Shown here: piece by piece, positions 11,242 through 38,606 of the stretch | How positions within the stretch are numbered: the first letter of the stretch is position 1 | Layout: each line of letters opens with the position of its first letter | NCBI RefSeq assembly: GCF_006345805.1 | Contig: NC_042997.1 | Coordinates: 157,976,001 to 158,040,000 of the forward strand | Length of the DNA stretch: 64,000 bases | Source of the DNA: Octopus sinensis | Lineage: Eukaryota | Direction: 5' to 3' | The notes under the pieces: generated by a model | Database searches by the model: none | What the model saw: the letters and a program-made list of their open reading frames with translations, nothing else | What the model was told of the DNA's origin: nothing | Made by a program: the position numbers and the translations under genes

Positions 11242-11292
11242 ACTGGCCTAATTGATAATGGCTACGGAAGGAGCCGAAACTGTCTGGTCAGT
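11242..11292 (+). ncRNA. Degenerate type-I hammerhead ribozyme motif
   Basis: ACTGGCC..a TTGATAA t GGCT acggaagg AGCC GAAA ct GTC t GGTCAGT. Helices I and II pair, but the CUGAUGA core carries two transitions. Confidence 0.4.
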
Positions 11293-11401
11293 CTAAAGAA
11301 TTCTCGGTTTGATTGTTGAGGCAATTGCAGTCCTTAGCAGAGTATATGTTATGTGCGCCATAACAGCATTTATACATTTTGGCTCCTATTTCTTGCAATG
11401 C

Positions 11402-11636
11402 TGGTGTTAGTTCAGGTTTGTATTTTTGGATGAAATATGTCTCTTTATTGAGTCGGGCTTGTGTAGAAGTTCAGTCAGCAAATTTATATAGAGGCAAAGT
11501 AGTGAATTTAGGTTGTATTTGTTTCGCACATACGTCGATATGGTCGCTGAGATAAATTTGGCGGTACTGTGGTGAAGCTATCTGTTGACGATCCATCGTA
11601 GAACGTTGACAAATAGAATACCCCGTGCTACCGATA
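11402..11636 (-). pseudogene. Inverted duplicate of a PLE GIY-YIG endonuclease segment
   Basis: Reverse complement aligns to 11726-11952 (TATCGGTAGCACGGGG...CAAAAATACAAACCTGAACTAA). Confidence 0.85.
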
Positions 11637-11963
11637 GGTCAACACTTTACAATTAAATCAAATTTCACTTGTGCATCTGTAAATCTGATCTACGTAACCA
11701 ATTGCTCGGGTTGCCAGAAAGACTATATCGGTAGCACGGGGAATTCTATCCGTCAACGTTGTACGGTGCATTATCAACAGACAGCCTCACCACAATATGC
11801 CAAATTTATCTTAGTGAACATATTGACGAAACAAATACAACCTAAATTCACTATTTCCCCTCTATATAAATTTTCTGACTGGACTTCTACTCAAGCGCGA
11901 CTCAATAAAGAGACATATTTCATCCAAAAATACAAACCTGAACTAAACACCAATTCATTCTAA
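11637..11963 (+). pseudogene. PLE GIY-YIG endonuclease domain (fragment)
   Basis: FTCASVNLIYVTNCSGCQKDYIGSTGNSIRQRCTVH...RLNKETYFIQKYKPELN: LIY/YIG motifs with CxxC, conserved R, H, E and terminal LN. Confidence 0.9.
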
Positions 11964-12543
11964 TTGTTTTACTAATTGTCACTTAATCACTTGACTCCTG
12001 GACACCCATTCATATTCAAACTTGAGTCATGAGAGGTCCGACATGACTCTTATGGAGAATGTATTCATACCTTGACAATTGCTTTATCGTTCATTTTCAT
12101 ATTCTATTGGACTGATTTATTTTATTCAATTATGGAATTTCAATGTATACAAAAAGTTATATATGTATGCCACCCACGATTTTTAGGTATAAATTACTGT
12201 TCATACTTATGTGTCTGCATATATAATATATATATTATATATATATATATATATATTGTGAATATATATATATGTATATATATGTATATATATATGTATA
12301 TATATGTATATATATATATATATATATATATATATATATATATATATATATATATATATATAATAATAATAAATATTAGGGAATAAATCCAAATTTACAG
12401 GGAAAAAATCAGATTTAGGATTAAATCGATTTTATAGTAAAATATTATAAAATATTATTAGAGACAAAACCACTATTTTGCAAAACAAACAAGGAAAGAC
12501 TTAATCAATACATAAAATTTTAATAAATAGTAAAAAAAAACCG

Positions 12544-12586
12544 CCACTACAATCGTTTCTTGTCTTGATCGACAATCTTCAGGTGG
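12544..12586 (-). ncRNA. Minimal type-I hammerhead ribozyme (intact core)
   Basis: Minus strand: CCAC CUGAAGA UUGUC gaucaa GACAA GAAA C gauu G UA GUGG. Helix I CCAC/GUGG, helix II 5 bp, GUA cleavage triplet. Confidence 0.85.
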
Positions 12587-34560: not shown

Positions 34561-36254
34561 TACTTCTTTTGGTATAATTAAAATTCGTGATAGTAGCAGG
34601 TAGAATGTTATATTAGATATTTCACTCCAACTATTTCGTTCCCTGTTTTGGTCTTTTGCTATATGAACTGTATCTGGAACAATAATTATACATGCACTGT
34701 TTGGAGATTTGCGGCGCATAATGCTTACAGAGATCGAACTAGCGTTTTAGTGAAGGAAGTGCTCCACGTGGGTAACAGTAAACAAGCAGTAATAGAGACA
34801 GTGGAATATAATATTTATTATATATCTAGTGCGGTATCATAATGAAATTGCTTCGTTTGATTAATATAAATTACCTAGTAGCTACCATATTATTTCAGTT
34901 GTAGCTGGCAAAATTCATCTTCTGATACTAAATATAATTAGCCGTTATAAAATAATTTCTAGTAATATCAGTGACCTATAACAAATAGCCACATAAGTTA
35001 TATTCTTACTAATGAAAAAGTAAAAATGAGCAAAAATCTAGTGGATTTATTTTGCCCTTGGAAGTACGAAAGCGTGAGTTAGCTTTACCATCATTTGATT
35101 TAAATATAAAGAAGTAAAGTTAACAATGCAGTGGAGGTTTCAGGGTTCAAATCCCAACGAGGTCAACTTTGTTTATCATCATTCCGGCGCCAATAAGATA
35201 TTGTATCAATGAAGTAAAACCAAATCGATTTAATCGACCCTTCTTAATATTAACCCTTATATTGAGGAACAGACCTCAAAATGAGAAAGCCTTTGTACGA
35301 CGTTAAAATAAAAAAAAAAATCAATGTTTTGGTGAGCTCTATGACACTTTCGACTTCGGGCAATTTCTATAATACTTTATATCTTACGCAAGTCAACCTG
35401 TCGGAGATGATGCCTCTTTCAATTATACCAATCGTAATGAACGGGTTTTATACTGTCATAAATCTGCCGAAGTTAATAATGAACAAGTATTTCGTCAAGT
35501 ACTAAAATGAAGTTATATTATAGATAGATTGTTGATGTTCTTGCAGTTATCATTATTGTTGATTCGCTGCAGGCTAATCTTGATTGAAAAACCAATGATT
35601 GAAAGCATTCTTCTAAGAGTAAGTTGATGCATGTATGCGTGTATGATCGTATGTATATATGTATGTATGTATGCATGTATGAATATGTGCGTGTGTATGT
35701 ATATATGCGATATATGTCTATATGCGTATATATAATATAAAATATCTCTCTCTTTCCTTCTCTTTCTCTCTTTCTCTTTCAATATATATATATATATATA
35801 TATATATATATACATATATATATATATGAGAGAGAGAGAGAGAGAGAGAGAGAGAAAGAGAGAGAGAGAGAGAGAGAGAGAGAGAGAGCTCTTTCCGAAT
35901 GGTTAAGAATTTGCATAGCAATCATGAGGTGCTGTTTTCTAATTTGCTGTCCGCTATCTTGTGGAATGCAATTTTCTGTAAAATCGGATCGACAAAGTCA
36001 TTGTGATTTAAAGTCAGTGGAGAGAAAATTAGCAGAATCCCTCGGATGGATTGTAATTATAACTGAAAGGTCCACTCTTGTCATACTAGGTCAAACTGAT
36101 TTCACATGAGAATTACATTAACAGTCAACGTATTTCTGGCGTACTCTTATACGCTATTGCAATGATGGTGGTAGTTTAGTAGATTTAGCAACTGAACGTT
36201 CTTGGTTTGAAACTCTCTCTCTCTCTCTCACACGCATGCACACAATTTTTATCT

Positions 36255-36470
36255 TTCTTTTTTACTTCTTTCAGTCATTAGTCTGCAGCCCGCTGGGGAA
36301 CCATCTAGAGGAACTTTGGTAGAACGAATCGACACCTGTACTTACTTTTTTAAAGTCAGTTGCTTATTCAATCGGTTTTTATTTTCGCCGAACTGCTAAG
36401 TTACAGGGCGCATAAACGTACCAACACCGGTTGTCAAGTGGTGGTAGGAAAAAACAAACAGACGCAAACA
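36255..36470 (-). mobile_element. Degenerate SINE 3' half (family of 5122)
   Basis: TTTCAGTCATTAGTCTGCAGCC...GAATCGACACC...GCCGAACTGCTAAGTTAC...CCAACACCGGTTGTCAAG. Confidence 0.8.
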
Positions 36471-36916
36471 TATATACGTGTGTATGCGTGTGTGAGTATA
36501 TATTCATATAGATGCACAAACATATATTGCTTTATGTACGTACACATCAATGTGCGAGTAGTTGTAAGAGTGGTATCAGAGGTTCTTTCCCCACAAGTAT
36601 CTCAAACTACATTATTAAATTCTATCTTTTCTTCGTTAAGAAGTGCGATGTGATTAGAGGTATCTGTGGCTGATAGAAATATAAAGCATGTAATGTCCAA
36701 ATGAGTATATATTGTAGTGATCACGTTCGCTGTGGGGTGGTTATTTCTCCTGTCAATGTAAATAAAATGCACTCACTATAAGTTCATTTTAGCTCTTATT
36801 TCTAGCAATGTAGGGTCTACCCAATACCCTCAGTCACAACGAGTGACAAGTGAATTTTTCCTTTTTGATTTTATATTGCACATAGCCACCTTCATTATTT
36901 TACATATATGTATATG

Positions 36917-37030
36917 CATACATACACACATACATACATACATACATACATACATACATACATACATACATACATACATACATACACACATACATACATA
37001 CATAATACATACATACATAAATACATACAT
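36917..37030. repeat. (CATA)n microsatellite
   Basis: Seen directly. Confidence 0.95.
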
Positions 37031-38271
37031 AAAATCATAATTTAGAGTATCTAAGAGATACCACCACACTGGAAATAGCACTCAATACCAGTTTCAAGGG
37101 TTTTCGCACAGAAGCCCTATTTCCGACGATGCGATTTCTGGTGGTTTTCGGTACATGAGGAAGTCCGGAGGCGGTGAAAATAGCTTTGCTTGTTTATCCA
37201 GGTGTCCCATGTAACTTGCGGCCAATATTGCTTAAATCCCTAGCTGTAACAGTCTTGGAGGTCCCGCAATTGGATCGTTTCTACCTTCGTGCTCATATCA
37301 CTGAATAATTCATTATGTCAATAAATGTTATTATATTATTATGGTTTTTGTTAAATATATACTCAATGTATGCTTAATATATATCATTACCCTTCATTTT
37401 CTGAAAAACTAAAAATCTCTAGATGGGCTACTTCCATTCAAAAGCTATTTGTGTGGCTCACCCCAAAATTGAAAAATTTGAAATAAAAAAGAAACGCCGT
37501 TACACAGAATAATGAAAATATAAAAATGGTGTAACCATAGTGCGAAAACCAGCTGGGAAAATCGAGTAACAGAAAACCGAGAAATCCTAAATTTCATTCT
37601 TAAGCTAATTGCGTATTTCTGTATATATATATATATATATATCTATATCAAAAGGATGTGTTATGATACTATTCCACATATACAAAGACAGCCAGGCCAA
37701 GAATCAAATATACCTTCATCATCAGCCGCCCCACGGATATCATTATGGTTTTGACACCTGGGCAGTACTCTTCAATCCGGCGGTATCAACAGCACTAAAA
37801 TAAGTGTTGTTGAGAACAAACATACCAAAGAAACCACAATTTTCAAATACATTTACACTATGTACAACCGTATCGGTAAATAAATTCAATAAGTAAATTA
37901 CAACCAACTCCTAAGTACGTAACTAAGCAGCGGACAATCCTTTAAGTCATTCAAATTTTATAATTCCCCACTGTCTTCCATAGTATATTATAAAAGTGAA
38001 AGTGAAATTTGATTCATTCAATCAAATTACAGGCAGGATTAAACAAAGAAACACATAAACCAATGTACATTGTATCGGTTATTAAAAATAAACATGCTAC
38101 ATCGCGAACAATCTTTAAGTTCATACAAATAATAATCTCACCAGTCTTCCATACTACTACTTTATATAAATCTCTTCAAAACAAAACAAACGCGATTGAA
38201 TTAAATTAAACTAATAATATAGTTATGATTGAAAAGTTAATGATAAAACATTACATACAGTTCTATATTTA

Positions 38272-38606
38272 AGAGATGAGGAATTATGTACATTATTTAC
38301 ATTATTTACATTTGACGGATATTTGTCCTCATCTTACTTGTTGTTAACACAACGTTCAGCCTTCATCAGATGTCTTGGAGAAATTTCGAACCTGGGTTCA
38401 CATTCCTAAGGTATTTTAATAATAATAATGATAATAACGATAATAATGATAATAATAACATCGAAAAATACCTTAAGAATGGGAACCCAGGTTCGAAATA
38501 TCCCCAAGACACCTGATGAAGGCTTGAGGGTATATCAGCCGAAACGTTGTCTTAACAACAAACAAGACGAGGACAAATATCCGTCAAATGTAAATAATGT
38601 AAATAA
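38272..38606. mobile_element. Palindromic PLE-pLTR pair (38293-38417 / 38465-38606) around an (AAT)n spacer
   Basis: Arms are reverse complements. The right arm has an HHR; the left arm has the same HHR with helix II deleted. Confidence 0.9.
38506..38553 (+). ncRNA. Minimal type-I hammerhead ribozyme
   Basis: AAGACAC CUGAUGA a GGCU ugaggguauauc AGCC GAAA CG UU GUCUU. Helix III is reduced to the palindrome ACGU, the triplet is GUU, and helix I has one mismatch. Confidence 0.7.

What the first reader, a model, noticed from the sequence alone, without database searches (positions are those of the whole stretch)
11242..38553. Multiple minimal hammerhead ribozymes, each family with its own palindromic helix III (possible dimerisation code)
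Seen: canonical HHRs at 12544-12586(-) and 13858-13942(-), a near-canonical one at 38506-38553(+), and altered copies at 11242, 16769, 17752, 18052 and 22740. Half-motifs occur near 865-910(-) and 2195-2216(-). Helix III differs between families: ACGU, ACAUAUGU, ACCGGU, AC-GAUU-GU (one change from ACGAUCGU), AUGUACGU (one change from ACGUACGU) and ACAGCUGU. Established: PLE termini carry minimal type-I HHRs whose weak palindromic helix III favours cleavage as dimers. Inference: different palindromes would let each family activate only with its own tandem copy, a self-recognition barcode among many coexisting families in one genome.
Basis: partly seen in the sequence, partly recalled or inferred. 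Interest (0 to 1): 0.8.

Follow-up and report, generated by a model that had tools for sequence, protein, structure and literature searches.

The report
Penelope-element hammerheads share their palindromes
The window holds dead end-pieces of seven repeat families, most of them Penelope-like jumping genes, that carry a known small RNA motif predicted to cut itself, likely in pairs; its palindrome is fixed within a family but reused by unrelated families, so it is unlikely to be a family barcode.

Summary
The motifs are real. The eight full sites belong to seven repeat families (A-G). C, E and G sit downstream of Penelope-like (PLE) ORFs, A and D less firmly so, and B and F have no ORF found. 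Three pattern searches gave 1,078, 9,598 and 30,008 genome matches against 124, 2,966 and 764 for controls.

Helix III is family-fixed and palindromic, as published for PLE dimer hammerheads. The barcode is not supported. A and D both use ACGU inside this window, and six unrelated clusters use ACCGGU. Across the sample, 31 of 43 lineages share their palindrome (7 of 19 multi-copy ones), with no deficit of collisions. B's fixed ACGAUUGU pairs better with sister palindromes than with itself, and 12 of 20 sister-family pairs are fully cross-compatible. F has a stable 5-bp helix III. Helix I would block most heterodimers as a by-product of divergence.

Two 'altered' sites are family-typical core variants: U3-A8 (17752) and U4C (18052). 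The two half-motifs are unconfirmed. No cleavage was tested. This scan met the same class before on other DNA and rejected the same barcode idea there (e1-9829413).

The parts
38508..38553 (+). Family A minimal (loopless) hammerhead, helix III ACGU; helix I has one broken pair in this copy. It is one arm of an inverted 5'-truncated pair spanning about 38289-38606.
16769..16809 (-). Family A copy truncated at the core (5' helix I arm lost, helix II mismatch); likely dead
12544..12586 (-). Family B hammerhead, identical to the family majority; helix III ACGAUUGU (G-U palindrome); near the 3' end of a young non-coding element at 12325-13336 (97% to L300)
13858..13942 (-). Family C hammerhead with long helix II, helix III ACAUAUGU, 562 nt downstream of the endonuclease stop of a Hydra-like PLE
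14496..14876 (-). C-terminal GIY-YIG-type endonuclease end of the family C element (95% to the 787-aa RT-EN frame in L293); 5'-truncated, between (TA)n tracts
18051..18086 (-). Family D loopless hammerhead, core CCGAAGA (U4C, family majority), helix III ACGU, the same as family A
17752..17796 (+). Family E hammerhead matching its family; U3-A8 core, helix III ACCGGU, U-U at the base of helix II; 3' end of a Neptune-like PLE (ORF seen in L308)
17044..17067 (-). Inverted, truncated 3' half of the family E hammerhead
13633..13677 (-).
11247..11298 (+). Decayed family F hammerhead; the family helix III is a 14-nt palindrome predicted to give a 5-bp monomer stem
22738..22830 (+). Family G hammerhead with long helix II; family helix III ACGUACGU, this copy has a CpG-type change
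19288..19379 (-). Inverted, more decayed family G copy (other arm of the 19104-23011 inverted structure)
21533..21805 (+). Decayed endonuclease end, 38% to the family C protein, about 940 nt upstream of hammerhead G
855..870 (-). Half-motif inside the inverted repeat 717-1034; possible relic, unconfirmed
2196..2213 (-). Half-motif resembling a family held in L198/L183; no homology over the motif found, unconfirmed

Best explanation
The sites are 5'-truncated, solo or inverted 3' ends of seven repeat families, most of them Penelope-like retrotransposons, each carrying a type-I hammerhead motif that in the active parent element likely self-cleaves the element's RNA, likely as a double hammerhead formed by two copies on one transcript. 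Shown: the motifs, family fixation, palindromy, the position behind PLE ORFs for C, E and G, and reuse of palindromes by unrelated families. Inferred: selection keeps helix III self-complementary because the dimer needs it, but which palindrome a family has is lineage history within a very small sequence space. Sister families differ mostly by paired transitions through G-U intermediates (ACGAUCGU / ACGAUUGU / ACAAUUGU; ACAUAUGU / ACAUGUGU / ACACGUGU) that stay cross-compatible. Any failure of heterodimers would come mainly from diverged helix I arms. The window copies have no same-strand partner and are likely inactive fossils.
For: Pattern excess over control: 1,078 vs 124, 9,598 vs 2,966, 30,008 vs 764. 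Stems that the patterns did not ask for: helix I of 3 bp or more in 60 of 90 and helix II of 4 bp or more in 60 of 90, against shuffled means of 4.5 and 4.1. In 800 kb of evenly spaced stretches, 15 of 23 descriptor hits were palindromic, against 1 of 5 hits in three shuffles. The hammerhead lies about 560 nt behind the EN stop in family C copies and about 740 nt behind it in a Neptune-like family. Sharing: 31 of 43 lineages; colliding pairs 3, 20 and 8 for 4-, 6- and 8-mers, never below uniform expectation (P(sim<=obs) 0.42-1.0). B x ACGAUCGU is -7.9 and B x ACAAUUGU -6.1 kcal/mol, against -5.8 for B x B. Of 20 sister pairs, 7 keep the same helix III although helix II differs in all 20, and 12 are fully cross-compatible. 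Dimer dependence and palindromy are published (PMC4209133; PMC6765202; PMC3088659 Fig. S8 legend).
Against: No cleavage or RNA-end data were obtained. Same-strand neighbours within 1.5 kb are rare (5 of 153 loci, against 49 with an inverted copy), so the tandem template for a cis dimer is seldom seen. Tandems at full-element spacing would be missed, and partial tandems occur in L308 and L310. 8 of 20 sister pairs are not cross-compatible, one of them with a fully shared 6-bp helix I. Among multi-copy lineages only 7 of 19 share a palindrome. For loopless A and D the dimer is not favoured over two folded monomers in the energy model (+2.9 to +7.1 kcal/mol). No ORF was found for B or F; the A and D links rest on few loci (L338, L018; L339).
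Confidence: 0.8

Rival explanations
1. Selected self-recognition code: palindromes diverge between co-active families so that RNAs of different families do not activate each other in trans.
For: Palindromes are family-fixed. Different Watson-Crick palindromes of one length pair badly with each other (6-mers -0.2 to +1.7 against -4.6 to -8.3 kcal/mol for self). 13 of 20 sister pairs differ in helix III and 8 are incompatible. Tandems are rare, which leaves room for trans pairing.
Against: A and D, which fill most of the 100 listed of 30,008 loopless matches, share ACGU. Six clusters share ACCGGU, and collisions are not below chance. Pairs compatible in both helices number 4 of 903 against about 1.4 expected from the marginals 47 and 26, so there is no deficit. 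B prefers non-self. Only four 6-mers exist with C15.2-G16.2 fixed.
Confidence: 0.08
2. The families with 2-bp (B, C, G) or 5-bp (F) helix III cleave as monomers; only loopless A/D and the 6-nt type need a partner, so there is no single dimer rule.
For: The F hairpin is -2.8 kcal/mol. PMC7229834 reports efficient self-cleavage of most invertebrate retrozyme hammerheads and describes those as a 2-bp helix III with a tetraloop (passages).
Against: Loops stay palindromic through double changes, even in F (CCGG vs CGCG), which a monomer does not need. Predicted dimers beat two monomers by 6-10 kcal/mol for B, C and G. Those retrozyme motifs may use loop-loop contacts that were not tested here.
Confidence: 0.3
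3. The motif is kept for a role other than cleavage, such as RNA dimerisation or binding of the RT-EN protein during target-primed insertion, or it is a passenger.
For: In vitro activity of minimal PLE hammerheads is low. Naiads spread without canonical hammerheads, and the authors raise parasitism. Abundant family D carries U4C, a change said to lower activity considerably in vitro.
Against: The catalytic core and the cleavage triplet are kept across families, and the 3-8 pair covaries (29 of 30 Watson-Crick, dominated by one family).
Confidence: 0.1

Closest known systems
Minimal hammerheads (min-HHR) of metazoan Penelope-like elements (Cervera & de la Pena 2014, PMC4209133)
   Same: Type-I core, an unpaired base before helix II, absent or palindromic loop 3, short helix I, the U3-A8 variant, many families per genome, mostly single or inverted copies (against 12, 25, 52, 59).
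   Different: These families were not found in the four papers returned (only PMC8557442 and one preprint were opened). U3-A8 cores are the majority of 6-nt-palindrome matches here (26 of 30). Family F has a 5-bp helix III.
Dimer-cleaving PLE hammerheads (Lunse, Weinberg & Breaker, RNA Biol 14:1499; title seen in the reference list of PMC6765202, text not held)
   Same: Short palindromic stem III, PLE association and dimer cleavage, as summarised in the review.
   Different: I could not read it, so I cannot say whether it discusses family specificity.
Hydra clade of C-terminal EN+ PLEs (Craig et al. 2021, PMC8557442) for families C and G
   Same: C-terminal EN without CCHH, a DKT motif, CxxC and CxH around the conserved E and N, (TA)n targets, a canonical hammerhead.
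   Different: The CxCX5C linker was not seen in the L293 frame, which has an Asn-rich stretch there. No phylogeny was built.
Non-LTR retrozymes and Schistosoma SM-alpha-type repeats (PMC7229834; review PMC6765202)
   Same: Type-I hammerheads in non-coding repeats (family B has no ORF found); a tRNA-like promoter cassette precedes hammerhead A.
   Different: Retrozymes are 150-450 bp head-to-tail tandems; copies here are solo or inverted.

Membership tests
PLE type-I / minimal hammerhead | Core CUGANGA...GAAA...UH (or U3-A8 covariant) in the family majority | tested here: met
   A, B, C, F and G have the C3-G8 core, E has U3-A8, D has U4C
PLE type-I / minimal hammerhead | Helices I and II form, with different sequences in different families | tested here: met
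   60 of 90 for each helix against about 4 in shuffles, stems not required by the search
PLE type-I / minimal hammerhead | Short palindromic helix III | tested here: met
   73 of 90 Watson-Crick plus 4 G-U palindromes. F is palindromic but long.
PLE type-I / minimal hammerhead | Located at the 3' end / pLTR of a PLE (RT + GIY-YIG) | tested here: met
   C, E (L308; relative L304 hits RVT_1 and GIY-YIG, the latter just under the cut-off), G. A rests on L338/L018 and D on L339 only; not shown for B and F.
PLE type-I / minimal hammerhead | Self-cleavage, stronger as dimer | not testable with these tools
   Only energy models; sequencing data were contigs
Hydra-clade PLE (families C, G) | DKT in place of DKG; EN without CCHH; CxxC and CxH beside E and N; (TA)n targets | tested here: met
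   Read by eye from the L293 frame against the description; flanks
Hydra-clade PLE (families C, G) | CxCX5C linker before the EN | tested here: not met
   Not seen in the L293-L299 frames; hence 'Hydra-like' only
Hydra-clade PLE (families C, G) | RT phylogeny places it in the clade; RWK motif | not tested
   No reference proteins were fetched; the N-terminus is missing from the L293 frame
Non-LTR retrozyme | Short head-to-tail tandem repeats, each with a hammerhead | tested here: not met
   Same-strand neighbour within 1.5 kb in 5 of 153 loci
Family-specific helix III barcode (proposed) | Each family has a palindrome that no other family uses or pairs with | tested here: not met
   31 of 43 lineages share; A equals D in the window; B cross-pairs

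The most novel reading that the evidence does not exclude
PLE RNAs in this genome dimerise in trans (tandems are rare, and family A may make short Pol III transcripts from a tRNA-like cassette), and helix I plus helix III together form an address under selection for self-recognition, so that sister families escape each other by compensated palindrome switches such as ACUAGU/ACCGGU.
Probability: 0.08. Interest if true: 0.6.

Novelty: new member of a known kind. Interest (0 to 1): 0.22.

Why it matters
As found, it adds families to a published class and gives a negative test of the barcode idea. The genome is a convenient natural panel: tens of thousands of motifs, several core variants (loopless with extra A, U3-A8, U4C, long helix II, long helix III) and living G-U intermediates between palindromes. 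That panel could be used to test the open question of what PLE hammerheads do and whether they work in cis or in trans. If the novel reading held, it would show a sequence address for RNA self-recognition among competing retroelements.

Tried and rejected
Rfam scan: no hammerhead family among the 150 of 297 matches shown, which are microsatellite-driven miRNA hits. Pfam did not name the window EN fragment or the L293 frame, so their identity rests on motifs and on homology to frames found here. Expression: no RNA holder is on record. Contigs of four runs showed no backward joint and cannot show ends; this is no evidence either way. I first took site 22740 for chance and reversed that after the family search. 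No ORF was found between inverted B pairs in L300-L302. Heterodimer ddG values where helix I does not form (for example E x N, 0.9) are artefacts of the model and were not used. The scan required a palindrome, so it was not used as evidence of palindromy. Two deletion variants of C were dropped before the sister-pair count. Literature searches for a barcode or heterodimer claim found none, but the library lacks most subscription papers, and Lunse et al. was not held. Supplements were not read and may hold family-level helix III tables.
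Full report
Setting. The window is G000:C1:157976001-158040000 of an animal genome of 2.72 Gb, 34.5% GC and rich in (TA)n tracts. Its size and repeat make-up resemble a cephalopod by my recall; no call tested that.

Observation. A strict descriptor finds three in the window (B, C, G) and none in 20 shuffles. 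In the genome, three core patterns gave 1,078, 9,598 and 30,008 matches against 124, 2,966 and 764 for the reversed controls. These patterns asked for no stems, yet of the first 90 loci 60 have helix I of 3 bp or more and 60 have helix II of 4 bp or more (shuffled means 4.5 and 4.1). The free loop letters were Watson-Crick palindromes in 73 of 90, and in 44 of 46 motifs with both stems. These 90 are the first matches on contig C1 and a few families dominate them. In 80 evenly spaced 10-kb stretches, 15 of 23 hits were palindromic against 1 of 5 in three shuffles. Rfam showed no hammerhead among the 150 of 297 matches listed.

Families. A (38508, 16769) is loopless with an extra A, helix III ACGU in 36 of 46 copies; both window copies are damaged in helix I. 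B (12544) has ACGAUUGU in 28 of 30 copies, so this G-U palindrome is the family state; these loci were picked by likeness to the window copy. C (13858) has ACAUAUGU in 50 of 54. D (18051) has ACGU, with core CCGAAGA as the majority. E (17752) has ACCGGU in 28 of 28 and a U3-A8 core, a covariation already reported for Schistosoma PLEs. F (11247) is old and has a 14-nt palindrome that folds as a 5-bp monomer stem (-2.8 kcal/mol). G (22738) is a real old family; ACGUACGU is its commonest form, 7 of 22 regex hits of which three are unrelated. The two half-motifs stay unconfirmed.

Host elements. Hammerhead C lies 562 nt behind an endonuclease end at 14496-14876 that is 95% identical to a 787-aa RT-EN frame in L293. 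That frame shows DKT, no CCHH, and CxxC and CxH around the conserved E and N, as described for the Hydra clade, but not the CxCX5C linker, so I call it Hydra-like. G follows a related decayed EN. E ends a Neptune-like element in L308 (clade name from recalled motifs), whose relative in L304 hits RVT_1 and GIY-YIG. A follows a Penelope/Poseidon-like EN in L338 (clade name recalled), and D follows an EN fragment in L339 only. No ORF was found for B or F. Within 1.5 kb, 103 of 153 family loci are solo, 49 have an inverted copy and 5 a same-strand copy (some have both). This fits the truncated and inverted insertions described for PLEs. No window copy has a same-strand partner.

Test of the barcode. 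From about 2.0 Mb held, 284 motifs clustered into 51 families, 35 superfamilies and 43 superfamily-by-palindrome lineages. The scan gives 0-1 false hits per 800 kb, so about two singletons may be chance. 31 of 43 lineages share helix III with another superfamily; among multi-copy lineages it is 7 of 19. ACCGGU (E) is used by six superfamilies, ACGUACGU (G) by three others, ACAUAUGU (C) by two, and ACGU by both A and D, which sit 1.3 kb apart in this window. Colliding pairs (3, 20, 8 for 4-, 6-, 8-mers) never fall below uniform draws, and exceed them if position 15.2 is counted as free; the pattern searches fixed that position for 6- and 8-mers. B pairs better with ACGAUCGU (-7.9) and ACAAUUGU (-6.1) than with itself (-5.8 kcal/mol), and it shares helix I with the ACGAUCGU sister family. 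Of 20 sister-family pairs, helix II differs in all, helix III is identical in 7, and 12 are fully cross-compatible; D1 x D2 costs -0.1 kcal/mol. Against my reading: 8 of 20 sister pairs are incompatible, and unlike Watson-Crick palindromes do pair poorly.

What gives specificity. In a double type-I hammerhead each core uses one copy's 5' helix I arm and the other copy's 3' arm (from the published model). Of 903 lineage pairs, 47 cross-pair in helix III, 26 in helix I and 4 in both, against about 1.4 expected from the marginals; all four are sister lineages. A x D1 fails through helix I (0 and 1 bp) despite the same ACGU. So most heterodimers would fail, but as a by-product of divergence, and an unmatched heterodimer assay would not test helix III.

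Mechanism. Most likely the parent element's RNA is cut at the UH site by a double hammerhead on a tandem transcript (inferred; published model with low in vitro rates). A single change in a palindrome makes two mismatches in the homodimer, so viable paths would run through G-U pairs. Both intermediates are seen: ACGAUUGU as a whole family between ACGAUCGU and ACAAUUGU, and ACAUGUGU in single copies between ACAUAUGU and ACACGUGU. Several of these steps are CpG-type transitions. Palindrome length and core type follow the host lineage in the cases linked to an ORF: loopless in A and D, 6 nt with U3-A8 in Neptune-like, 8 nt in Hydra-like. Energy models favour dimers over two monomers for B, C, E and G (5.5-10 kcal/mol) but not for loopless A and D, which cannot form helix III alone. 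Monomer activity of the 2-bp and 5-bp types remains possible.

Known and new. PLE hammerheads, their palindromic helix III, dimer cleavage, many families per genome and the U3-A8 variant are published. Papers seen: PMC4209133 parts 1-2 of 4; PMC6765202, PMC3088659 and PMC7229834 passages; PMC8557442 passages and section 11; bioRxiv 10.64898/2026.07.22.740005 part 1 of 5; Lunse et al. title only. No supplements were read. Searches for a barcode or heterodimer claim found none. Earlier notes of this scan report the same class in other genomes, one of them rejecting the same barcode idea; there are none for this genome.

Verdict. Interest 0.22.

Noticed in passing
Family A: L338, L398, L006, L013, L021, L028 (window copies 38289-38606 and 16716-16809 stop short of it): A tRNA-like cassette with A-box and B-box-like motifs lies about 150 nt upstream of hammerhead A, in the 3' UTR behind a Penelope/Poseidon-like EN in L338. 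14 of 71 copies have their 5' end within about 20 nt of its start (my note said 11 for a narrower range, the recount there is 10). It may be a Pol III SINE-like derivative or a truncation hot spot. A paper search gave two listings, not read.
   Followed up: partly
window 12325-13336; L300-L302: The family B element is young (97% identity) and forms 4.5-5.6 kb inverted structures with internal repeats of about 0.7-1 kb and no ORF found; likely a non-autonomous PLE derivative.
   Followed up: partly
L251-L280, L303-L307: U3-A8 cores make up 26 of the first 30 six-nt-palindrome matches. A young Neptune-like family has a 748-aa open RT-EN frame (L304) and only a 3-bp helix I.
   Followed up: partly
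window 11402-11952: Inverted pair of Neptune-like endonuclease fragments (48% to L304/L308 proteins) with no hammerhead found downstream.
   Followed up: partly
window 38757-40972 (+): Frameshifted non-LTR retrotransposon with AP-endonuclease and RVT_1 hits.
   Followed up: no
window 42466-42771 (+): RT fragment 44% identical to the family C protein.
   Followed up: no
window 53294-53340 (+) and 62817-62836 (-): Further core matches; the first has a 5-bp helix II but no helix I and no homologue among loci held.
   Followed up: partly
window 30790-31365 (-) and 28399-29103: Open frames that may be host exons or decayed transposons; no Pfam hit at cut-off.
   Followed up: no
L293-L299: The Hydra-like protein of family C carries long Asn-rich stretches between RT and EN.
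   Followed up: no
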